IMG/VR virus record: IMGVR_UViG_2554235190_000007
DNA from: a virus
Lineage: Duplodnaviria; Heunggongvirae; Uroviricota; Caudoviricetes
DNA length: 34,570 nucleotides
Direction: 5' to 3' (one strand)
This document shows, in pieces, positions 2,901-34,356 of the stretch. A program made the position numbers and the translations under genes. The notes under the pieces are model-generated. The model did not search any database. It was not told the origin of the DNA and was given only the letters and a program-made list of their open reading frames with translations. Each line of letters begins with the position of its first letter. Within the stretch, counting starts at the first letter, position 1.

Positions 2901-3979
2901 CAGAACGGGTCCTCCTGTACTCTGGCTTTTTTCTTTTTCCGCGCGCCGGGGTCTTCAGGTTCAGGCAGATAAGCATCAGGCGGGCCGACACGGATTTCCG
3001 TCAGGGTACCGTTCTGGTCCTGAGTAAACGTGACTTCCGAAACAAGCAGTTCGGTATTGTCAAAACCACAGACCGGATCAAAGACAATCACCCGCTGGTT
3101 GGGTTGCCACAGCGTACCGTTACCCTGTCGCCAGCCCTGCACCACATAGGTGGTTTCATCCGTCCGCGCCGCCCGTTGCCGGGCTTCAAAGTCAGCACGC
3201 GCAATACAGCCTGCCCCCGTAGCCTGCCCTGTCTGCCTGATATACATCGGACGGTAACGGGCAATAAATGCGTCCTCTGTGCGGGCCCGCAGCGCGGTGG
3301 TGGTGGCCTCACCGAAATCATCGTCGTTTCCGGCACGCTGCCCCGCCACCTGGTAAACAGAAAACCGCTCCCGGATACTCTTCTCCGTATCGCAGGAAAG
3401 GATGTTTTCCCCAAGTACCAGCGCGGTATGTGCCCGCGTTGAGCCAATACCACCAATCACCAGCCTGCCGTGCGGGTCGTCGTAAGCCAGCGCCTGCTGC
3501 TGACCGAGTATTTTGTTGATCACCTCAATCACCGTTTCACCGTGATCAGGCTGGACATCAGGAATAACACCCGACGGCGCACCGCTGTTCACCACCTCAA
3601 TGCCGAAAGGCGCAGCAAGCGCCTGCGCAATCTGTACCAGCGATCGTCCGTTAAACTGTGTCGGTTCGGCTGCACAGTCAATCAGGTCAGCGGTCAGACT
3701 ACGTCCGGCAATACCGGTGCTGACCGAACGGGCATCGTAACGAACGGGCGTCGCCTCCACCCAGCCGGTGATCACCAGCTCATCACCAATCAGCACCTCC
3801 ACTTTTGAACCATTTTTAATGCGCGGCTGAAGCGTGGTAATACCCTCATCTCCCGGCCACTGGCGGGTGATCTCCACACTGAAATCCCGCGCCAGTCGTT
3901 CAACACCGGCACCGATGCGCACCGATGTCCAGCCATTCCACTCCCGGCCATTTACCCGTAGCGTGACGTTATCGTTCAT
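2900..3979 (-). CDS. baseplate hub / late control D-like tail protein (Mu gp44-like)
   Basis: 359 aa, N-terminus MNDNVTLRVNGREWNGWTSVRI typical of P2 gpD / Mu P proteins; lies between the DNA circulation and spike genes. Confidence 0.7.
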   Translation of the reverse strand: MNDNVTLRVNGREWNGWTSVRIGAGVERLARDFSVEITRQWPGDEGITTLQPRIKNGSKVEVLIGDELVITGWVEATPVRYDARSVSTGIAGRSLTADLIDCAAEPTQFNGRSLVQIAQALAAPFGIEVVNSGAPSGVIPDVQPDHGETVIEVINKILGQQQALAYDDPHGRLVIGGIGSTRAHTALVLGENILSCDTEKSIRERFSVYQVAGQRAGNDDDFGEATTTALRARTEDAFIARYRPMYIRQTGQATGAGCIARADFEARQRAARTDETTYVVQGWRQGNGTLWQPNQRVIVFDPVCGFDNTELLVSEVTFTQDQNGTLTEIRVGPPDAYLPEPEDPGARKKKKARVQEDPF

Positions 3980-5304
3980 TGCACTGGCACCTTCAGAGGG
4001 ATCACCGGCACAAAGCCGGGATGCGTAATGGCATTACGCCGGATAATGTCCGCGTCACGCGCCGCGTTATCAAACCAGGTCGCCGCCAGCACCAGCGCGG
4101 GTAAAACCTCATCCGGCGTGCGCTGAATGATCCGTGCAGACTGTTCAAGGCGCGTGTTGATATCCGCATTCAGATCTGCTTTCACCCGGCGCAGCGCCAG
4201 AAACAGCGCATCACTGGTTGTTCGGGACAACTCCTTATCAATTGCCGTATTCAGTGTGTCGCGAATGTCAGTCAGTTCTTCCCACGTCGGCAGGTCAACC
4301 GTGTTTTTCACCGCCGGTGCATTGTTCAGTGCTGGATGCGTGACGGAAGGCCAGCCAGTGCTCTGCGCGGGTGTTGTTGCCTGCCCCACTGCGGCATTCT
4401 GCATCACCGCGGAAGTTGTTGGCGCAGGCAATCGGGTGACGGCATACGCCGCTTCGCTGATTGCGGTCGTACGAAGGGTGCTGGCAACCACGTTACGCTG
4501 CTGCGTCGCCGTGGCGGTGGTTTTACTGTCCGTTTTCCAGACGCCGCGCGGTTGCAGATCGCTGCCGAGGCTGACACCGGAAAGCGTTTTGATCATGGTG
4601 ACCAGGTCGCTGGCGTTACCATAAAGGCGTTTCCCGGTACGCCACATTTTCTGCACCTGCTCAACGAAATTTTTGCCTGACGATGGCGGCGGCAGAAGTA
4701 CCGAGATATCCCCCTGCAACAGCCTGGCGGCATCCGATACGGCAGAATCCACCACTTTCATCGCATCAGAAACATACCCAAGCATTGTGCCGGCATTACC
4801 GACGACGTCGTTCTGCACAAAATCTGCCACGCCATCGATACTGAAACTACTGAAACTGTCACTGATACAATCATCCAGTGCGAAACAGGATGACATCAGC
4901 GTCTGTGCCGTCGCCGCACCTGATGTGGGGTAAGAGAGTTCTCCCGCTTCGACAAACTTCAGGTCAAAGCGGACAATACGCCCTTCATTCTTCGATGTGC
5001 TGACCCGAACTTCCCCGTCAACACAGACTTTCAGCTCACCGTAAGTCGGATGGACAAGCGTGCCGGGACCGGGTTTATTCAGCGCGTCAATCAGGCGATC
5101 GCGCTGGTCAAAGCAGTCATCTCCCACCACATAAGCCGTGATGGACGGGCGGAAAGTGATTTTCCCCAGGTCTTCGGTATAGGGTTTGTCGCGGTTCGGG
5201 TATTCGTGCGTTTCCACACGACGGCCAGTTCCCGCACTTTCTTCTTCAACCTTAAACGGCACACCTCGAAATGACGCATCCTGAAGCCTGTCTTTCCACG
5301 TCAT
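3976..5304 (-). CDS. DNA circulation protein (Mu gp43 / N-like)
   Basis: 442 aa, N-terminus MTWKDRLQDASFRGVPFKVEEESAGTGRRVETHEYPNRD matches the Mu N-type DNA circulation N-terminal domain; downstream of the tape measure as in Mu. Confidence 0.7.
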   Translation of the reverse strand: MTWKDRLQDASFRGVPFKVEEESAGTGRRVETHEYPNRDKPYTEDLGKITFRPSITAYVVGDDCFDQRDRLIDALNKPGPGTLVHPTYGELKVCVDGEVRVSTSKNEGRIVRFDLKFVEAGELSYPTSGAATAQTLMSSCFALDDCISDSFSSFSIDGVADFVQNDVVGNAGTMLGYVSDAMKVVDSAVSDAARLLQGDISVLLPPPSSGKNFVEQVQKMWRTGKRLYGNASDLVTMIKTLSGVSLGSDLQPRGVWKTDSKTTATATQQRNVVASTLRTTAISEAAYAVTRLPAPTTSAVMQNAAVGQATTPAQSTGWPSVTHPALNNAPAVKNTVDLPTWEELTDIRDTLNTAIDKELSRTTSDALFLALRRVKADLNADINTRLEQSARIIQRTPDEVLPALVLAATWFDNAARDADIIRRNAITHPGFVPVIPLKVPVQ

Positions 5305-5325
5305 ATATACTCCGAAAATTAAAAA

Positions 5326-5345
5326 GCCACCTATTAGAAGGTGGC
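5326..5345 (-). terminator. rho-independent terminator after the tail-module insert gene
   Basis: Minus-strand hairpin GCCACCT-(6 nt loop)-AGGTGGC followed by TTTTTAATTTT, located between the stop of ORF 5366..5896 and the start of the DNA circulation gene. Confidence 0.55.
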
Positions 5346-5365
5346 CTTGTAATGAATTTTATTAA

Positions 5366-5896
5366 TTAGCGAGTCAGAAACAACGAATCTTTATACTTTT
5401 GCTGTTGTTCATTTAAATACTTAGCTGTTTCATCGCTGGCAAATGGAAATATTACCGTATTTTTAGGCATGGTAATTTCTTTTTTGTCCAGCGTCAGAGT
5501 AAACATAGGAACATACTGAGCAGAGTAACGCACCGCAGAAACGAGCTCTAGTTTAGACTCTTCAATAACACTTAAATTATCCAGGCTAACTTTCTCTTCA
5601 TCTTTTTTCTTTGACGCATTTAAAGTTTTTATTACTTTATTTAATTTCTCCTGAAAATCCTCCTTAAAGTTTTCAGGATTGCCGTCGACAACAAGAATCT
5701 GTTCCCCCTGATTATCTGGAAAAATAATCTTTGCACTTATCAATTTATTTTCTTTATAAACATCACCAAGTTTTATGGCTCCTCCAGATAACTGAATAAT
5801 ATGTTCATCTTTAAAGGAGATGTTGCCAGAGATTATGAGAGATGAAAAAATAGCCGCTGCTCCAAGAATTACACTTGCTGTGATATAGCCTTTCAT
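5366..5896 (-). CDS. hypothetical exported or membrane-anchored protein (AT-rich insert in tail operon)
   Basis: 176-aa ORF with hydrophobic N-terminus MKGYITASVILGAAAIFSSLIISG (signal peptide or signal anchor, no lipobox Cys) and a K/E-rich body. Visibly AT-rich relative to the flanking tail genes. Own promoter-like sequence upstream and terminator downstream. No family recognised. Confidence 0.6.
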   Translation of the reverse strand: MKGYITASVILGAAAIFSSLIISGNISFKDEHIIQLSGGAIKLGDVYKENKLISAKIIFPDNQGEQILVVDGNPENFKEDFQEKLNKVIKTLNASKKKDEEKVSLDNLSVIEESKLELVSAVRYSAQYVPMFTLTLDKKEITMPKNTVIFPFASDETAKYLNEQQQKYKDSLFLTR

Positions 5897-5931
5897 TTTT
5901 CGCCTATTAACATTTTTCTAAATGTGCATTA

Positions 5932-5959
5932 ATTCTATCACTCTATTTATGACTTACAA
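5932..5959 (-). promoter_or_regulatory. candidate sigma70 promoter for ORF 5366..5896
   Basis: On the minus strand TTGTAA - 16 nt - TGaTAGAAT (extended -10), about 35 nt upstream of the ATG at 5896, in the AT-rich gap after the tape measure stop. Confidence 0.35.
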
Positions 5960-5987
5960 CCAGCAATACCTGTGAGGGGAATCCTGG

Positions 5988-7820
5988 CTACCAAAATCGG
6001 GTATAGCCAACATCGTGATTTATATCAATGCCACTGGAGCGAGTTTCCGTAACCCGCATACCTGGTGGCATATTTATAAATGATACCTTGATCTCACCAT
6101 CAACTTTTGGCGCGGTAGCTTTATTAATCATGAAGGGATTCGAGCCTGTGGCACCGGAGGCGTTGTTTGCCTGAGCCGGATCCACCGCCGGATAAGGAGT
6201 GTATCCCCGTGGCGGTATTCCCGTCCCATAAGCATCATAAGCACCCGCGCCCCACTGCGCCGAGTTAATGGCATCGACCGTGTCACCGGAACTGTCGGTA
6301 AACCATTCAATAATCGGCTTCAGCTTATCCCACATATCCTGAAACCACTTAACAACCGGTCCCCAGTTATTGATCACCATCCCCAGCGGCGACCAGGCAA
6401 AAACCTTCTTCAGAAGTTCCCGGCCAGCCTCAAAATAAGGACTAATGGTTTCCCAGAGTTTCTTAAAATAAGGTCCGACAACATCCCAGTTAGTGATAAT
6501 TAATCCCGCAGCCAGGGCAATCGCCGTCGCAATCATGCCAATCGGCGTCATCGACATGATCCTGCTGACGATACTGATGGCACTGCCCACGCCCATCAAT
6601 CCCAGTTTCAGAATCGCAAGACCGGCAGCAAGCCCGACGACGCCGCGAATAACCCGGGGATTTTCATCCGCAAACTTCGTGAATTTTTCCCCTAACTCCC
6701 CCAGCCATTGCGTGATATTTTTGGCGTCACCAGAAAATGCGCCACCAATAGCCGCAAGGCCGTTAGTTGCGGTCCCCGTCATTGCCTCCCACAGGTTGGA
6801 CAGCGTACCAAGCTGGGCCTGAACACGTTTATTCAGGCTGGCCTGTTTATGCATCTTCTGCTGGATCTGATCGTAACCATCCTTTCCTTTATCGATCAGA
6901 GCATTGACCACCTGAAGGGTTTCGGCATCATCACCAAATATTGCCTTAAGTACACCGGTTCGCTTAACGTCGGTCAGTTTTCGCAGCTTTGCCAGTTGCC
7001 TGAACATGTTATCAAGACCGCCAAAACTCCCTTTGCCATCAGTAAAATCGAGCTGTACCCCGAGTTTCTGGCGGGCCATGATTTTATTGACGTCCCTGAT
7101 TTTCTTAACGCTTAATCCGGACTGGATAACTTTTCGCAGGGCATTACCTGCCGACTCCCCGTTCATCCCCATCTGATCCATCATGACGCTGATGGGGGCA
7201 AGGCTCTGTGCAGCCTGAAGACCGTCCTTGTTCACCATCTTCAGAACAGAACTGGTTTTAGTGAAGAAGGACAACATGTTGGTATCGTCAACGCCCAGAT
7301 AAAACGCCTTCTGGATAGTGTCGAACAGCCCCATCATGTCTTCTGACGCCGTTCCGGTAGCATCCTGCATCTTTGCAGCAAACTCGGCAGCCGCTTCCGG
7401 TGTTTTTTTCAGTTGTACCGCAAGATAAGCTGTCGCTTTACCCACACCACCCAGAATGTTTTCTGCCGGGATCCCCTGACGCACCAGCATCTGCATCATG
7501 TTCTGGAAATCAGCCGTTGTACCGGGTAGCTGGTTACCCAGGCCAATAGCCAGTTTATTGATGTCCTGAAAGCGCTTTCCAACCTCGCCGTTCGCATCCA
7601 TCATGGCGACTTTCAGCCCGGTGGCGGCGTTTTCCTGATCGGCATAAGATTTCAGGGAAAGCGTCAGACCCGCTGCCAGTCCGCCCCCAAGCGCCAGCCC
7701 ACCCTGTGACGCTTCTTCCGCCTGGCGTTTAAATCCCCGGATTTTCTTTTGCATTTTCGACAGCGCGGGAGAAAGCCTGTCGACACCGGTGATCAACGCC
7801 TTAAGCTCAAATTCAGCCAT
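5988..7820 (-). CDS. tail tape measure protein
   Basis: 610 aa, helical N-terminal part, Gly/Ala-rich hydrophobic central segments and C-terminal domain; follows the frameshifted chaperone pair as in all long-tailed phages. Confidence 0.85.
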   Translation of the reverse strand: MAEFELKALITGVDRLSPALSKMQKKIRGFKRQAEEASQGGLALGGGLAAGLTLSLKSYADQENAATGLKVAMMDANGEVGKRFQDINKLAIGLGNQLPGTTADFQNMMQMLVRQGIPAENILGGVGKATAYLAVQLKKTPEAAAEFAAKMQDATGTASEDMMGLFDTIQKAFYLGVDDTNMLSFFTKTSSVLKMVNKDGLQAAQSLAPISVMMDQMGMNGESAGNALRKVIQSGLSVKKIRDVNKIMARQKLGVQLDFTDGKGSFGGLDNMFRQLAKLRKLTDVKRTGVLKAIFGDDAETLQVVNALIDKGKDGYDQIQQKMHKQASLNKRVQAQLGTLSNLWEAMTGTATNGLAAIGGAFSGDAKNITQWLGELGEKFTKFADENPRVIRGVVGLAAGLAILKLGLMGVGSAISIVSRIMSMTPIGMIATAIALAAGLIITNWDVVGPYFKKLWETISPYFEAGRELLKKVFAWSPLGMVINNWGPVVKWFQDMWDKLKPIIEWFTDSSGDTVDAINSAQWGAGAYDAYGTGIPPRGYTPYPAVDPAQANNASGATGSNPFMINKATAPKVDGEIKVSFINMPPGMRVTETRSSGIDINHDVGYTRFW

Positions 7821-7995
7821 GTGTGCGTTTCTCCTGCTCTATCCTGTTTGCCTGACTGACCAGTAAGGGAATTTCACTGATCGGCATATTCAGCAATTCG
7901 AAAGGATTAATGCGCCAGTAGCTGGCGCAGTCAAAGAAGCGATCAGTGAGGTATTCAGCCGTCAGGCCTGGAGGAAAAAACCAGCCACAAGCCAC
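7813..7995 (-). CDS. -1 frame extension of the tail assembly chaperone (frameshift product C-terminal part)
   Basis: 60-aa ORF in the -1 frame overlapping the 3' end of ORF 7962..8231. The overlap contains the slippery heptamer T TTT TTC (mRNA GGT TTT TTC; about 7974..7980), deduced from both protein tails (...AGFFLQA* versus ...GWFFPPGL...). It ends inside the tape measure start. Confidence 0.6.
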   Translation of the reverse strand: MACGWFFPPGLTAEYLTDRFFDCASYWRINPFELLNMPISEIPLLVSQANRIEQEKRTHG

Positions 7996-8231
7996 GCCGC
8001 TGCATTCAGGTCTGCCGGAGACATCTGGTCGACAGAGCTTTGCGGCACTTTCGCCAGCCGCACAATGTATTTCGACACCACATGCGCCAGAAGTTTGACT
8101 GACTCATCCTGATTCATCTGGTAGGGATACCCCAGCTCGCGGACATCCTTCCCGGTGGGCTCATCAAACTCCAGTACGGAGAGTGTCTCGCCATGAGCAG
8201 TAATCGGTTTCTTTAACTCAAGCTCTTTCAT
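7962..8231 (-). CDS. tail assembly chaperone (G-like, Mu gp41-type)
   Basis: 89-aa ORF between tail tube and tape measure; conserved position of the G/GT-type chaperone; ATG start. Confidence 0.7.
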   Translation of the reverse strand: MKELELKKPITAHGETLSVLEFDEPTGKDVRELGYPYQMNQDESVKLLAHVVSKYIVRLAKVPQSSVDQMSPADLNAAAWLVAGFFLQA

Positions 8232-8587
8232 TACTGGTAATCCCCTTCTTCACCGTGGAACTCAAGATCAACCGTGCCTTCTTCGGCATTATGGTTCGCT
8301 TCGCCGTGCAGCCAGGCAGACGACAGTACATAGACCTGACCGTTCGCCAGCTCGGCAGTGATGGTCATCTCATCAGACGAGGTGATTTTGTTCACCGGAA
8401 AATTCTTCGGCACCTTGAAAGTCCCTTTGACATAAGGCGCACGGTGAGTTTCCTTGCGGTCCACTGAACCGTCCAGGCCGATGATGTCATCATTGACCGT
8501 CCTGTTCATGGGCACCTCAATGCCGCCGGTCAGCGATAGCTGTTGACCGTCAATTTTGAAATAACAGGTTCCCCCGATACGGGCCAT
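8231..8587 (-). CDS. tail tube protein (Mu gp40-like)
   Basis: 118 aa directly downstream of the sheath gene; contractile-tail tube family features; ATG start overlapping the sheath stop. Confidence 0.8.
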   Translation of the reverse strand: MARIGGTCYFKIDGQQLSLTGGIEVPMNRTVNDDIIGLDGSVDRKETHRAPYVKGTFKVPKNFPVNKITSSDEMTITAELANGQVYVLSSAWLHGEANHNAEEGTVDLEFHGEEGDYQ

Positions 8588-10083
8588 TATGCAGACTCCT
8601 CTGAATACTGAAGACGGAACTGGTTAACCACGGCAAAGACACGCAACTGGTTAACATAGTCAGGCGGGAACAGCGTGTTCAGGCGGTTCGGATCGCTGGC
8701 ATCACGCTCCACAACCAGGTACTGCTTAAACAGTTCGTAGTTTTCCACGATCCCCGCACGCTCAAGCTGACGGTAGGTTGCCAGCAGTTCCCCTTTGATC
8801 ACCGCCGGTGTGACAATCGCCTGACCGGGACCAAAGCGGGTACCGTCGCTGGCAAGCTTGTGACGCCCGTACTTACTGGTAATGACGGATTTCAGTTTGC
8901 GCAGCACATACGCGCTGGTATGCAGCGTCTCGCTGTCGAGGTAGCTGTTATCCGCAACACCGTAAGCGTTTTTCCTGTACGTGGTGACATCACGCTGAAT
9001 GCGCAGCACCCCGCTTTCGACATACGCCGTTGCCACGCCATGAGACAGCAGGGTCTGTTGTTCGGTCATCGTGAACCGTTTCCCCTTCGGCGCAGGCAGC
9101 ATACCCACCAGCTCACCGGTCTGCGTGGGACGTGCCGGATCGTTGCGGATAAACACCGCTGCGCGGGCGGTACGGCTTGCCGCCAGCTCGTCGGCAGGCG
9201 TCTGGGTCTCTTTTTCGTATCCCGCCAGGGTAATGTGCTGCTGGTTAAACTGGTCACCTGCGGTCACCAGTTCTGACAGCGTGCCGATCTTTGCCGTATA
9301 CACATGACCATACAGCTGACGCACATAGCTCCAGCGACCGCTGGTATCGTTCATCTCGGTCACCAGCGTGTTAACGGAGGCTGTGTCGTTGAACGGCAGG
9401 CCGATATAATCAAACGGCTCATCCGCCATTGCAGCCACCGCGCCGGTGAGAACAGGAGCGCCCGTTCCGGCGGTACCCGTCGCCACGGCAATCTGTACGC
9501 CCGCTGGCAGCACTTCGCCCCCACCAAAGCCGTAGTAATTGAGGCTGACAGGAATTTCATTCCCGCAAAGCCCCTTATGACGCGCGGTCAGTGTGACCAC
9601 GCCTGCCGAAGATGAGGCAGTAAACGGCAGGGTCGGAACGGCATTGATGGCATCCTGGATACTGCTGGCAATCGTCGCAACGTTATCGCCGTTGGTCACC
9701 GGTGCCTGCACGCGGGTACGTCCCACATAAACATTCACCGTGCCGGTTTCGGTTGCCGCGCCGGTCACCGTCAGCGTAACCGTTGCCGCCGCGCCCGTGG
9801 ATTCAGGAACGGCAATCACATACAGCTCGCCAAACGGGTCGGTCTGGCGATAAGCCTCGACCATACGCGCCAGCTGACTTCCCGCACCACAAATCTGGCG
9901 TGCATAGTCTGCCGACGGCATCAGTACCAGACTGTTGGCAACAATCTCTGCACCGTTATTGGCATGACCAATCAGCAGCGATGCTCCGCTGTCCTGTGCA
10001 GTATTCGCCGCCTGATTATCCATTTCCGCATAAAACAGCGGAACCAGCGTATTCGACGGAATGGTGTTAAAGCTTATCGTCAT
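8587..10083 (-). CDS. contractile tail sheath protein
   Basis: 498 aa, N-terminus MTISFNTIPSNTLVPLFYAEMDN typical of Mu L / P2 FI-type sheath proteins; followed by tube. Confidence 0.85.
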   Translation of the reverse strand: MTISFNTIPSNTLVPLFYAEMDNQAANTAQDSGASLLIGHANNGAEIVANSLVLMPSADYARQICGAGSQLARMVEAYRQTDPFGELYVIAVPESTGAAATVTLTVTGAATETGTVNVYVGRTRVQAPVTNGDNVATIASSIQDAINAVPTLPFTASSSAGVVTLTARHKGLCGNEIPVSLNYYGFGGGEVLPAGVQIAVATGTAGTGAPVLTGAVAAMADEPFDYIGLPFNDTASVNTLVTEMNDTSGRWSYVRQLYGHVYTAKIGTLSELVTAGDQFNQQHITLAGYEKETQTPADELAASRTARAAVFIRNDPARPTQTGELVGMLPAPKGKRFTMTEQQTLLSHGVATAYVESGVLRIQRDVTTYRKNAYGVADNSYLDSETLHTSAYVLRKLKSVITSKYGRHKLASDGTRFGPGQAIVTPAVIKGELLATYRQLERAGIVENYELFKQYLVVERDASDPNRLNTLFPPDYVNQLRVFAVVNQFRLQYSEESA

Positions 10084-20273: not shown

Positions 20274-20609
20274 TTATTTTACATCCCAAGGTAGTTCCTC
20301 AAGAGAGAAGACTAATTCATTATCAATGATTTCGTATTCTGCATAACCTTCAACCTCTCCTGAGAAGTTATTGTCAACGCATCCTTCATAATAGCTATAT
20401 GGTGCTATAAAGTGAAACCCATATTCATCTATCTCTGTGATTTCAAAATTGTAGTAATCGTAAGAATATCGAATATCATCATCAGAAATAGAACTAAGTA
20501 CATAGTTATTAAATTTATCGGAATGCTTAACGATAAGCTCTGACAACGCGTCAAGATTCTCTGGAGAGATATTTCCTAACGGTAATCTGTACTCAACGGC
20601 ATTAATCAT
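20274..20609 (-). CDS. hypothetical acidic protein (111 aa), AT-rich insert between Q and the lysis genes
   Basis: ATG with AGGAGG 4 nt upstream; very AT-rich; strongly acidic and Tyr/Glu/Asp-rich (e.g. DDDIRYSYDYYNFEITEIDEYGFHF, EGYAEYEIIDNE). Flanked by terminators on both sides. No family recognised. Confidence 0.6.
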   Translation of the reverse strand: MINAVEYRLPLGNISPENLDALSELIVKHSDKFNNYVLSSISDDDIRYSYDYYNFEITEIDEYGFHFIAPYSYYEGCVDNNFSGEVEGYAEYEIIDNELVFSLEELPWDVK

Positions 20610-28569: not shown

Positions 28570-29166
28570 ATGGATTGGCATGACCTTATATCAAAGGTAA
28601 TTATCGGACTTGTTACAGGCTCAATCGCAGCTTACTTAACTGCGCGATATGCACTCGGCCGTTATTATAAAGAAAAATGGTGGGACAAAAGAATAGATTT
28701 GTATACGCAATTAGTTGACTGTGTTTATCTTCTAAAAAACACAGCTGACTATTGGTATAAACATGAGTTACATCACGCTTCACAATTCCCAACCTACTTT
28801 AGTTACAAATCAAAAGAAGAAAATGAAATCCTTAGCAAATCTTTCTCTAATGAGCTTGAAAAACTCAGTAGAATAGGTGAGCTATCTTCATTATTCTTAA
28901 CAGAAGAGTGTGGGGATAAAATCCGTTCATTCATTGAAAATGAAGAAAATCTATTTATACAATGGGAGTTTGATAGTATAGAGTTGATAGATGCCCACAA
29001 GTCAAGACTTGATAAATTAAAAGTATTACTAGACGATATTATCTCTGAAGCAAAGAGAGAGCTTAAGGTCAATAAAAAACATAACAGCCTAAAGAATATA
29101 AAGTGGTCCATAACTATGCCAGACCAAAAAAATGATGAGCCAATTAATTATTACGACAATCATTAA
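28570..29166 (+). CDS. hypothetical membrane-anchored protein (198 aa), AT-rich cassette downstream of cI
   Basis: ATG with AGGA upstream; one N-terminal TM helix (ISKVIIGLVTGSIAAYLTARYAL), W/Y-rich juxtamembrane segment (YYKEKWWDKRIDLY...DYWYKHELHH) and K/E-rich helical C-terminal domain; very AT-rich; clean terminator follows. No family recognised. Confidence 0.65.
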   Translation: MDWHDLISKVIIGLVTGSIAAYLTARYALGRYYKEKWWDKRIDLYTQLVDCVYLLKNTADYWYKHELHHASQFPTYFSYKSKEENEILSKSFSNELEKLSRIGELSSLFLTEECGDKIRSFIENEENLFIQWEFDSIELIDAHKSRLDKLKVLLDDIISEAKRELKVNKKHNSLKNIKWSITMPDQKNDEPINYYDNH

Positions 29167-33408: not shown

Positions 33409-34356
33409 ATGCGTTACATTAGAAAACACATTGCAAATTTTGATTTCAATATTGTATCCATTACATATTTGCTGATTGCTTGCATTGTAATCATGAAGTT
33501 CCCATTATTACTTCAAGATAAAACCTTCTTGGTTTGTGGGTTATTCCTCTCGGTAGCATTCATTTTTTGTGCCTATAACAACAAAAAAACAATCGTCAAT
33601 AAAATGATTGAGCACAGCATCATTAAATGGATTGGAACTGTATTGATTTTTTCAAGTTGTATGTGGTATGCAAAACATAAAATTAATTTTGATTACGATA
33701 TTCAACCGGAATACTTAATATACTCATCTTATGGTTATGCTTTCGCAATGGCCATTCCTCTATCTCTATCCATTTATGGCCTTAGCATTTTCATATACTT
33801 ATACCTTGGAAGAATTACTGCTTATCAATGCTTTTACGCGGCAATTTTGACCATCCCTTTTTCTGCAATGCTAAGAGAGACGATTGAAAAAAACCAAGAG
33901 GTTGATTTCAAAGTTATTATGTTGTTAGTTTTCGGGTTAGCTTTCGGTATCATAACCATGTTCAAAGCAATGCCAAAAACAAATAAAGAATCAACTTCAC
34001 CCAATAAAAAGAATCTATTATACATTGCAAAAACAATGGCACAAGATATTAATAGAGCAAAACTAATTTTAATGATATGGTTTAAAAAAATACTTATATG
34101 TTCGAATAGCTACTTAAGAGTTGCAGATCTATTATCGACAGCAATTGCATTATTATTCATTGGTGTTTTTTCAATAAAGATAATACCAGAGTATCAGAAG
34201 TCTTTTCTTTTACTTGATGCTTTTTCCAAGACAGATTGCAATACAAAAAAAGATTCATTTTCATACATCAGGAAATCGAAAAACGAATGCTACAGAATTA
34301 ATTCTAAAGGAATAGAAATTATCGAAATGATATCATTTACCTCATCAGCTGACTAA
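33409..34356 (+). CDS. hypothetical polytopic inner-membrane protein (315 aa, about 7-8 TM helices)
   Basis: ATG 10 nt after the integrase stop with AAGGA upstream; extremely AT-rich; multiple hydrophobic segments (e.g. IVSITYLLIACIVIM, FLVCGLFLSVAFIFCAY, YAFAMAIPLSLSIYGLSIFIYLYLG, VIMLLVFGLAFGIITMF, LLSTAIALLFIGVFSIKII); no family recognised. Confidence 0.6.
   Translation: MRYIRKHIANFDFNIVSITYLLIACIVIMKFPLLLQDKTFLVCGLFLSVAFIFCAYNNKKTIVNKMIEHSIIKWIGTVLIFSSCMWYAKHKINFDYDIQPEYLIYSSYGYAFAMAIPLSLSIYGLSIFIYLYLGRITAYQCFYAAILTIPFSAMLRETIEKNQEVDFKVIMLLVFGLAFGIITMFKAMPKTNKESTSPNKKNLLYIAKTMAQDINRAKLILMIWFKKILICSNSYLRVADLLSTAIALLFIGVFSIKIIPEYQKSFLLLDAFSKTDCNTKKDSFSYIRKSKNECYRINSKGIEIIEMISFTSSAD

What the first reader, a model, noticed from the sequence alone, without database searches (positions are those of the whole stretch)
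5310..5990. Exported-protein insert gene within the tail operon, between tape measure and DNA circulation genes
ORF 5366..5896 interrupts an otherwise conserved Mu-like tail gene order. It is AT-rich and has an extended -10 promoter-like element upstream and an intrinsic terminator downstream. The product has an N-terminal signal peptide or signal anchor and a K/E-rich periplasmic body. Envelope-targeted accessory proteins encoded inside tail modules are classically superinfection-exclusion or receptor-masking factors (for example cor-type genes), so a cell-envelope function in the lysogen is plausible.
Basis: partly seen in the sequence, partly recalled or inferred. Interest (0 to 1): 0.6.

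Follow-up and report, generated by a model that had tools for sequence, protein, structure and literature searches.

The report
Membrane-anchored accessory gene in phage tail operon
A small, AT-rich add-on gene sits between two tail genes of an SfV/e14-like E. coli prophage and encodes an uncharacterised protein, probably anchored in the inner membrane and facing the periplasm; it is optional for the phage, so its most likely job is to block other phages from infecting the host, but nobody has tested that.

Summary
ORF 5366..5896 lies on the minus strand, like the whole tail operon. It is 34% GC against about 55% in the flanks and sits between the tape-measure and DNA-circularization (Mu gpN-like hub) genes.

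It is optional. The flanks occur in 1100 of 5426 complete E. coli genomes, the ORF in 174. Isolated phages SfI, SfII and SfV have the slot empty. At least four other cargo genes use the same slot; two have an export signal and one matches a family named "Sie-like".

The product belongs to PHROG 5485 (unknown function). About 77 clusters exist, nearly all around 175 aa with an N-terminal hydrophobic helix. A confident AlphaFold model (pLDDT 92) has no relative among solved structures. Distant members lie in other prophage slots and small integrative islands, so the family is mobile cargo, not tail machinery. It is under purifying selection (pN/pS 0.18).

- The "terminator" belongs to the slot and is also present when the slot is empty.
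- The promoter is only a consensus match and is missing in distant orthologues.

There is no lipobox, so it is not Cor/Llp-like. Its topology fits inner-membrane injection blockers such as HK97 gp15. It is a classical moron and a candidate superinfection-exclusion gene; the function is inferred, not shown.

The parts
5366..5896 (-). Accessory gene of 176 aa (RefSeq WP_000679479.1, 'hypothetical protein'; PHROG 5485). N-terminal helix at residues 2-23, read as a signal anchor, followed by an alpha/beta domain at residues 32-171, read as periplasmic.
   Evidence: ORF and translation. phrog_5485 match over the full length, E 3.8e-108. No Pfam, NCBIfam or PADLOC hit. AlphaFold model with pLDDT 92.1. 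pN/pS 0.18 over 76 copies.
5932..5959 (-). Sigma-70 promoter-like site with an extended -10 (TTGTAA, 16 nt, TGaTAGAAT), 36 nt upstream of the ATG.
   Evidence: It is the only minus-strand site with a TG extension in the 18-kb late region, but the site count is not above shuffles. Unverified.
5897..5987 (-). 91-nt AT-rich leader between the tape-measure stop codon and the ORF start. It holds the promoter-like site and a weak Shine-Dalgarno sequence (AGG, 7 nt before the ATG).
5323..5348 (-). Hairpin of 10 pairs plus a T-run (intrinsic-terminator-like), about 20 nt before the ribosome-binding site of the DNA-circularization gene. This is a slot feature, also present in empty slots.
   Evidence: dG -17.3, z -4.8. 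Equivalent hairpins in the UTI89 empty slot, SfII (annotated there as a putative terminator), the other same-strand cargos and the Leclercia orthologue.
5988..7820 (-). Tail tape-measure gene, the upstream border of the slot. Its last few codons change with the cargo.
   Evidence: PF10145 and phrog_28. Variation in the 3' end.
3976..5304 (-). DNA-circularization / baseplate-hub gene (Mu gpN-like), the downstream border of the slot. Homology among all variants resumes at its ribosome-binding site, GGAGTnTAT-ATG.
   Evidence: PF07157 and phrog_184. Boundary alignment.

Best explanation
The gene is a moron, meaning optional cargo carried in a dedicated variable slot between the tape-measure and hub (Mu gpN-like) genes of SfV/e14-like temperate myoviruses.

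**Shown**
- It is dispensable for making virions.
- It is exchanged as a roughly 0.7-kb unit running from the last tape-measure codons to the slot hairpin. There are no target-site duplications, so the exchange looks like recombination within the conserved flanks.
- It is a real, selected protein-coding gene.
- Its family also rides in unrelated slots of other prophages and in small integrative islands.
- The N-terminal hydrophobic segment is conserved family-wide, and the alpha/beta body has no counterpart among solved structures.

**Inferred**
- The protein is a bitopic inner-membrane protein, N-terminus in and C-terminus out, with its body in the periplasm.
- The protein sits in the inner membrane of the lysogen. 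During lytic growth it is also made from the late transcript, which the phage's Q-like antiterminator would carry through the hairpin.
- From there it interferes with a post-adsorption step of incoming phages. The most likely target is passage of the ejected tape-measure or hub proteins and the DNA across the periplasm and inner membrane. This would be superinfection exclusion in the manner of HK97 gp15.
For: **Optional gene in a variable slot**
- The flanks are in 1100 of 5426 E. coli genomes and the ORF in 174.
- The slot is empty (60 nt) in UTI89 and in phages SfI, SfII, SfV and vB_EcoM-689R6, at 95-96% flank identity.
- Alternative cargos in the same slot: a 164-aa signal-peptide protein (84 genomes), a 225-aa lipoprotein (54), a bPH_1 protein (24), an OB-fold protein matching phrog_8545 'Sie-like' (70), and an IS3 element.
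- The cassette is 98.8-99.7% identical between prophages whose flanks are 95.6-98.2% identical.
- No flanking direct repeats.

**A selected, mobile family**
- pN/pS is 0.18.
- 77 clusters at 50% identity, nearly all 170-180 aa.
- Members at 53-58% and at 33% identity keep the same slot.
- Members at about 22% identity lie in Pseudomonas-type integrative islands beside recombinases, and in another prophage between its holin and RecT genes.

**Topology**
- 56 of 58 members have a hydrophobic N-terminal segment (median Kyte-Doolittle mean 2.22) within an uncharged stretch of median 22 residues.
- Charge bias is positive on the N side.
- There is no conserved AxA site, lipobox or Cys.
- AlphaFold gives a helix at 2-23 followed by an alpha/beta domain, pLDDT 92.

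**Precedent**
- HK97 gene 15 is a low-GC moron next to the tape-measure gene, followed by a terminator. It encodes an inner-membrane protein that blocks genome injection, and its specificity maps to the tail (PMC3594210; HK97 record).
- A Q-like antitermination protein is annotated in this prophage.
Against: - No experiment or homology links the family to any function. There are no Pfam, NCBIfam or PADLOC hits.
- There is no similarity to HK97 gp15 (hhalign probability 0.14%).
- Expression in the lysogen is unproven. The promoter is a consensus match no better than chance. None was found in Leclercia, and the 33% orthologue has only 26 nt of upstream spacer. The gene may therefore be expressed only late, together with the tail genes.
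- Signal anchor versus cleaved signal peptide could not be settled without a dedicated predictor. IIS|G after residue 23 is a possible cleavage site.
- An envelope location fits other roles equally well, such as toxin immunity or a host-fitness factor.
Confidence: 0.4

Rival explanations
1. It acts in the lytic cycle. The gene has no promoter of its own and is made only from the late tail transcript. It would act in the envelope of the infected cell, for example by stopping superinfection late in infection, by preventing progeny from injecting into lysing cells and debris (the role described for T5 Llp), or by tuning lysis.
For: The gene is on the same strand as the late operon and inside it. 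The 33%-identical orthologue lies 26 nt after the tape-measure stop, with a Shine-Dalgarno sequence and no room for an intergenic promoter. No promoter-like site was found upstream of the Leclercia orthologue. The E. coli promoter match is not above chance.
Against: The E. coli cassette has a 91-nt AT-rich leader with a good extended -10 match. Family members in integrative islands have no late operon to ride on. The prophage already has its own holin, endolysin and Rz-like lysis genes.
Confidence: 0.2
2. It is an immunity or protection factor against something other than phage that acts in the periplasm, such as a colicin/bacteriocin or a type VI secretion cell-wall effector. From memory, inner-membrane-anchored periplasmic immunity proteins such as the colicin M immunity protein have this topology.
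For: The inferred topology is bitopic with a periplasmic domain. The family is carried as cargo on several kinds of mobile elements. No catalytic motif is conserved, which suggests a binding protein.
Against: No toxin or effector gene lies next to it in any of the contexts examined. There is no sequence or fold similarity to any solved immunity protein.
Confidence: 0.1
3. It is a host-fitness or virulence moron, like lambda Bor or Lom. It would change envelope properties such as serum resistance, adhesion or stress tolerance rather than phage susceptibility.
For: It has moron architecture, and envelope-targeted proteins recur in the same slot. It is found in human, animal and environmental E. 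coli.
Against: As I recall, Bor and Lom are outer-membrane proteins exposed to the host, whereas this protein has no lipobox and no beta-barrel and is predicted to stay at the inner membrane. Distant relatives occur in marine and environmental Pseudomonas-type genomes with no animal host.
Confidence: 0.1
4. It is a tail-assembly or virion component specific to some SfV-like phages.
For: Its position between the tape-measure and hub genes is kept down to 33% identity across several genera.
Against: It is absent from isolated, propagated phages SfI, SfII and SfV and from about 84% of E. coli relatives with near-identical tail genes. The slot holds unrelated genes instead. An exported or membrane-anchored protein is in the wrong compartment for cytoplasmic tail assembly. 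Family members also occur in elements with no tail genes.
Confidence: 0.03

Closest known systems
HK97 gp15 moron (Cumby et al. 2012; reviewed in PMC3594210)
   Same: Both are low-GC add-on genes inside the tail operon, directly next to the tape-measure gene, and each is followed by a terminator-like hairpin just before the next tail gene. Both encode a small protein with a single N-terminal hydrophobic helix. gp15 blocks genome injection, and its specificity is set by the incoming tail.
   Different: gp15 is 62 aa with no large extra-membrane domain and lies upstream of the tape-measure gene. It belongs to the YebO family. No sequence similarity was found (hhalign probability 0.14%). The function of the present gene is untested.
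   Same: Both are phage-encoded envelope proteins that prevent superinfection. Cor genes also lie among the late or tail genes.
   Different: From memory, Cor and Llp are outer-membrane lipoproteins that inactivate FhuA. The present protein has no Cys and no lipobox and matches no Pfam family. It is predicted to stay at the inner membrane.
T4 Spackle (Sp) and Imm; lactococcal Sie2009-type proteins (recalled from the literature, not tested here)
   Same: These are small proteins anchored by an N-terminal hydrophobic segment, with their body outside the cytoplasm, that block a post-adsorption step. Sp inhibits the tail-spike lysozyme of a contractile-tail phage, and the Sie2009 type blocks DNA injection. 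The lactococcal proteins are of similar size (about 160-170 aa).
   Different: No sequence relationship was detected: no Pfam or PHROG annotation beyond PHROG 5485. The genomic locations differ (T4 early genes; the lactococcal lysogeny module).
Variable accessory hotspots of P2-like phages and satellites (Rousset et al. 2022, as cited)
   Same: Both are fixed positions between conserved phage genes where unrelated cargo genes replace one another. One P2 hotspot (Z/fun) also lies among tail genes.
   Different: This is a different phage group (SfV/e14-like) and a different slot (tape measure | hub). The cargos are single small genes, mostly envelope-targeted, and none matches PADLOC. I found no paper that describes this slot.
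PHROG 5485 (unknown function)
   Same: Full-length match, E 3.8e-108, positions 1-176 of a 176-position profile. A distant Pseudomonas-type member also matches (E 4e-14).
   Different: No difference: this is the family the protein belongs to, but it carries no functional annotation.

Membership tests
Moron (Juhala/Hendrix definition, as summarised in PMC3594210) | Present between two genes that are adjacent in close relatives | tested here: met
   The slot is empty, with a 60-nt spacer, in UTI89, SfI, SfII and SfV at 95-98% flank identity. The ORF is in 174 of about 1100 genomes that carry the flanks.
Moron (Juhala/Hendrix definition, as summarised in PMC3594210) | Base composition differs from the surrounding genes | tested here: met
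   GC is 0.31-0.38 against 0.52-0.61 in the flanks. The same holds for the orthologues in Leclercia and in L012.
Moron (Juhala/Hendrix definition, as summarised in PMC3594210) | Own promoter | tested here: inconclusive
   TTGTAA-16-TGaTAGAAT lies upstream, but the site count is not above shuffles. No match was found in Leclercia, and L012 has only a 26-nt spacer.
Moron (Juhala/Hendrix definition, as summarised in PMC3594210) | Own terminator | tested here: met
   The hairpin with T-run has dG -17.3 and z -4.8. Caveat: an equivalent hairpin exists in the empty slot, so it does not mark this cassette specifically.
Moron (Juhala/Hendrix definition, as summarised in PMC3594210) | Expressed from the repressed prophage | not testable with these tools
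   Needs RNA-seq, 5'-RACE or a reporter fusion in a lysogen.
PHROG 5485 | Full-length match to the family profile | tested here: met
   E 3.8e-108, positions 1-176 of 176.
Cor / Llp-type receptor-masking lipoproteins | Lipoprotein signal (lipobox with Cys) | tested here: not met
   The protein has no Cys at all, and no Cys is conserved in 58 family members.
Cor / Llp-type receptor-masking lipoproteins | Sequence similarity to the family | tested here: not met
   No Pfam, NCBIfam or annotated PHROG hit. There was no direct pairwise test against Cor or Llp sequences.
HK97 gp15 / YebO family | Sequence similarity | tested here: not met
   hhalign of gp15 against the 58-sequence family profile gives probability 0.14%.
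HK97 gp15 / YebO family | Blocks genome injection when expressed | not testable with these tools
   Needs plating, adsorption and DNA-entry assays.
i-spanin (Rz-like) | N-terminal membrane anchor with a periplasmic coiled-coil body, encoded in the lysis cassette with an o-spanin partner | tested here: not met
   The anchor is present, but the body is modelled as a beta-sheet-rich alpha/beta domain. The gene lies in the tail operon. The prophage has its own lysis cassette, which includes a 153-aa 'lysis protein'.
Core tail / virion protein of the SfV-like module | Present in all functional relatives | tested here: not met
   Absent from SfI, SfII, SfV and vB_EcoM-689R6 and from most prophage relatives.
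Known anti-phage defence systems (PADLOC-DB 2.0) | Match to a defence-protein model | tested here: not met
   0 families at E <= 1. The other slot occupants also match nothing.

The most novel reading that the evidence does not exclude
PHROG 5485 is a new family of superinfection-exclusion proteins with a previously unseen periplasmic fold. Anchored in the inner membrane, it would intercept the tape-measure or hub proteins, or the DNA conduit, of incoming contractile-tail phages. On this reading, the tape-measure | hub slot of SfV/e14-like phages is a dedicated and so far undescribed hotspot for envelope-level anti-phage cargo, with at least five interchangeable genes.
Probability: 0.3. Interest if true: 0.6.

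Novelty: new member of a known kind. Interest (0 to 1): 0.4.

Why it matters
Few envelope-level blocks to phage entry are understood mechanistically, and homology-based defence finders miss them; nothing in this slot matched PADLOC.

This locus offers a compact, testable set. One conserved slot in a common E. coli/Shigella prophage type holds at least five interchangeable small genes, several of them exported. One of them is a widespread family with a confident predicted structure and no known relative.

If the family blocks injection, it would add a new exclusion mechanism. It would also give a probe for how the tape-measure and hub proteins of contractile tails cross the periplasm. If it does not, the locus remains an ordinary moron.

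Tried and rejected
**Homology and structure searches that found nothing**
- Pfam, NCBIfam and PADLOC scans of the protein gave no hit.
- tblastn against 50,697 deposited phage genomes gave no hit. The gene is common in IMG/VR prophage contigs, however.
- Profile searches of PDB sequences with the 14- and 58-sequence alignments gave nothing below E 0.3.

**Hypotheses rejected**
- i-spanin: rejected on fold and location.
- Transposon-like insertion: rejected, because there are no flanking direct repeats.
- Phase-variable expression by the neighbouring small serine recombinase in the Pseudomonas-type islands: no consistent inverted repeats were found.
- A paralogue relationship between the family and the exported 180-aa neighbour in those islands: rejected (hhalign probability 0.3%).
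- The extra 503-aa and 94-aa genes in Leclercia relatives are tail proteins, not a second defence slot.

**Other dead ends**
- The Rfam scan gave only a sub-threshold Phe_leader match over the hairpin, which is a chance hit.
- Genome-collection scans with the broad alignments failed for lack of a conserved peptide stretch.
- Literature searches found no paper on this protein or this slot.
Full report
**1. What is in the sequence**

The finding's coordinates hold a single ORF of at least 50 aa. It runs from 5366 to 5896 on the minus strand and encodes 176 aa. The whole late region of the window is also on the minus strand. The order is sheath (8587..10083), tube, tail-assembly chaperone, tape measure (5988..7820), this ORF, a Mu gpN-like DNA-circularization/hub gene (3976..5304), then gpP-, gp45-, gp46-, gp47- and gp48-like baseplate genes.

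GC drops to 0.31-0.38 over 5250-6000, against 0.52-0.61 on both sides.

Upstream lies TTGTAA-16 nt-TGaTAGAAT, at 5959..5932 on the minus strand. Downstream lies a 10-pair hairpin with a T-run at 5348..5323. The hairpin folds at -17.3 kcal/mol, with z -4.8 against shuffles.

The promoter match is not statistically distinctive. Locally there are 2 sites against 2.4 expected, and over 18 kb there are 8 against 10.7. It is, however, the only minus-strand site in the late region with a TG extension.

The window as a whole is a complete lambdoid prophage with an HK97-type head and a Mu-type contractile tail. Over the 2.7 kb compared, it is identical to a prophage of E. coli T43. That prophage is annotated with integrase, repressor, a Q-like antiterminator, a lysis cassette, terminase and an invertible tail-fibre segment with pinE. 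Its gene names (ymfL, ymfQ, ymfR, yfdN-R) tie it to the K-12 remnants e14 and CPS-53. The closest isolated phages are Shigella phages SfI, SfII, SfV and SfIV.

**2. The gene is optional cargo in a variable slot**

The 2.7 kb spanning the slot matches 1100 of 5426 complete E. coli genomes at 95-99% identity. Only 173-174 of them contain the ORF.

Most of the others have the tape-measure and hub genes separated by a 60-nt spacer, as in UTI89. So do phages SfI, SfII, SfV and vB_EcoM-689R6. These are isolated, sequenced phages, so the gene is not needed to build a virion.

Other genomes carry a different gene at exactly this place:

| Cargo | Features | Genomes with that gene |
|---|---|---|
| 164-aa protein | typical cleavable signal peptide, GC 0.31 | 84 |
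| 225-aa protein | lipoprotein...LLGGC | 54 |
| 125-aa protein | bPH_1 (PF08000) | 24 |
| OB-fold protein | opposite strand; matches phrog_8545 'superinfection exclusion Sie-like', E 1e-41; appears N-terminally truncated | 70 |
| IS3 element | seen in one sampled genome | not counted |

I verified the slot position for the sampled loci, not for every copy counted. None of the cargos matches PADLOC.

**3. Anatomy of the slot**

Homology among all variants breaks within the last few codons of the tape-measure gene. It resumes at the ribosome-binding site of the hub gene, GGAGTnTAT-ATG.

Every same-strand cargo is followed by its own version of a GC-rich hairpin and T-run about 20 nt before that ribosome-binding site. 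The empty slot has one too (dG -18.7, z -3.5). The SfII depositors annotated it as a putative rho-independent terminator.

My inference is that late transcription crosses this hairpin thanks to the phage's Q-like antiterminator (annotated).

There are no flanking direct repeats. The cassette is 98.8-99.7% identical between prophages whose flanks are only 95.6-98.2% identical. This is the pattern expected when a cassette spreads by homologous recombination in the conserved flanks.

**4. The protein and its family**

RefSeq calls the protein hypothetical (WP_000679479.1). It matches phrog_5485 (unknown function) end to end and nothing in Pfam, NCBIfam or PADLOC.

A word-indexed search found only the E. 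coli form and a group at 53-58% identity in Leclercia and Lelliottia. That group occupies the same slot in SfV-like prophages and is equally AT-rich.

A full HMM search of 1.84 billion cluster representatives found 77 clusters, nearly all 170-180 aa and matched end to end. In the 58-sequence alignment, G44 and Y124 are invariant, and G39, L43, E49 and L134 are nearly so. A conserved motif, N/H-[IV]-x(5)-G-x-V-[KR]-L-G-x-[VI]-Y-x-E, follows the hydrophobic segment.

Among 76 full-length E. coli copies there are 13 synonymous and 9 non-synonymous variable sites, giving pN/pS 0.18. Two of 78 copies are frameshifted. The gene is therefore a real protein-coding gene under purifying selection.

**5. 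Topology**

In 56 of 58 members, the best 19-residue Kyte-Doolittle mean near the N-terminus (window starts 1-25) exceeds 1.6; the median is 2.22. The uncharged stretch is 22 residues at the median.

The N-side carries on average 1.2 K/R and 0.17 D/E. The 15 residues after the segment carry 1.7 K/R and 2.3 D/E.

No AxA-type site, lipobox or Cys is conserved.

This favours an uncleaved type II signal anchor, with the N-terminus in and the body in the periplasm. Cleavage after IIS23 cannot be excluded without a dedicated predictor. Either way, the body is predicted to be outside the cytoplasm. That is an inference, not a demonstration.

**6. The family is mobile cargo, not tail machinery**

- A member at 33% identity still sits between a tape-measure and a DNA_circ_N gene. 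It starts only 26 nt after the upstream stop and is followed by the usual hairpin.
- Members at about 22% identity lie elsewhere. They are found in roughly 10-kb integrative islands of marine Pseudomonas-type genomes and in Aquipseudomonas alcaligenes, beside large and small serine recombinases, a tyrosine integrase or a DUF5906 primase-like gene.
- One further member sits in another prophage, in a gene-poor gap between its holin and RecT genes.

A family that appears in several unrelated accessory positions on mobile elements is what one expects of a host-directed or competitor-directed accessory gene.

**7. Most likely mechanism**

The facts shown are these: the gene is optional, selected and mobile, carries a family-wide N-terminal export or anchor signal, and sits in a slot that also hosts other exported proteins and a 'Sie-like' relative.

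The best-supported reading is a superinfection-exclusion factor acting after adsorption, at the periplasm or inner membrane.

The nearest characterised precedent is HK97 gp15. It is a low-GC moron adjacent to the tape-measure gene and is followed by a terminator. Its inner-membrane product blocks genome injection with a specificity set by the incoming tail (PMC3594210; HK97 record).

The two proteins are unrelated in sequence and differ in size, so this is an analogy of design, not membership.

The suggestion that the target is the ejected tape-measure or hub protein is speculation, prompted by the gene's neighbours and by the gp15 precedent.

The main uncertainty is when the gene is expressed. 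The promoter evidence is weak and is not conserved in the orthologues. A purely late, lytic-cycle envelope role is therefore a serious rival. Toxin immunity and host-fitness roles cannot be excluded. A structural role is effectively excluded.

**8.

The general idea of an envelope-targeted accessory gene, plausibly for exclusion, is reasonable and is now better supported by the slot polymorphism and the nature of the other occupants.

The Cor-type analogy fails on the lipoprotein criterion. The terminator argument does not hold, and the promoter remains unverified.

This is a textbook moron carrying an uncharacterised protein family: a new member of a known kind. It is of moderate interest, mainly as a ready-made experimental entry point into a variable slot for which I found no published description, and into a protein family with no relative among solved structures.

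Noticed in passing
L005 1206-1265 (UTI89, empty slot); L105 1115-1153 (SfII); window 5323-5348: A terminator-like hairpin with a T-run sits inside the late tail operon, about 20 nt before the hub gene's ribosome-binding site, even when the slot holds no cargo. The SfII depositors annotated it as a putative terminator. Its role in an operon that must be read through is unexplained; it may be an antitermination-dependent checkpoint, an mRNA 3' stabiliser or a recombination landmark.
   Followed up: partly
L006 1311-1688 (-); L007 1233-1619 (+); L008 1296-1790 (-); L009 1258-1935 (-); hit H32 (IS3): The same slot holds at least four other cargo genes in E. coli: a bPH_1 protein, an OB-fold 'Sie-like' relative on the opposite strand, a 164-aa signal-peptide protein and a 225-aa lipoprotein. 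An IS3 element was also seen there. All are low-GC, and none has a PADLOC hit or a known function.
   Followed up: partly
L013 7634-9534; L017 7935-9531; L103 7161-8549: In three independent Pseudomonas-type integrative islands, the family member lies just downstream of a divergently oriented small serine recombinase (188-232 aa). In L013 an unrelated exported 180-aa protein lies between the two. I looked for invertible-segment inverted repeats and found none that were consistent.
   Followed up: partly
L108 4476-5063: A 195-aa family member sits in a gene-poor gap between the holin and RecT genes of an unrelated prophage next to a PTS gene. This is a third kind of genomic context for the family.
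   Followed up: no
L021 (NZ_CP081716.1, 'plasmid unnamed3', 37,667 bp, E. coli CX04): A record deposited as a 37.7-kb circular plasmid carries this phage's tail region, with a frameshifted tape-measure gene and a truncated copy of the ORF. It is probably the excised or replicating phage genome assembled as a circle.
   Followed up: no
L001 10013-11808: Leclercia relatives carry two extra genes (503 aa and 94 aa, no Pfam hit) between the hub gene and the gpP-like gene. The larger one matches PHROG tail-protein families, so this is a tail-module difference rather than a second cargo slot.
   Followed up: partly
window 28570-29166 (+); 33409-34356 (+); 20274-20609 (-): There are three further low-GC ORFs (GC about 0.28-0.39) with no Pfam or PADLOC match. 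One lies near the repressor, one beside the integrase at the prophage end, and one upstream of the holin. They are likely additional accessory genes of this prophage.
   Followed up: partly
window 7813-8231 (-): The tail-assembly-chaperone ORF (7962..8231, Phage_TAC_7) is overlapped at its 3' end by a 60-aa ORF in another frame (7813..7995). This is the layout expected for the programmed frameshift of tail chaperones.
   Followed up: no
window 5290-6010 compared with L018-L021: The cassette, including its non-coding parts, is 3- to 10-fold less diverged between prophages than the flanking tail genes (98.8-99.7% against 95.6-98.2%). This points to recent spread of the cassette among already diverged phage backbones.
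   Followed up: yes
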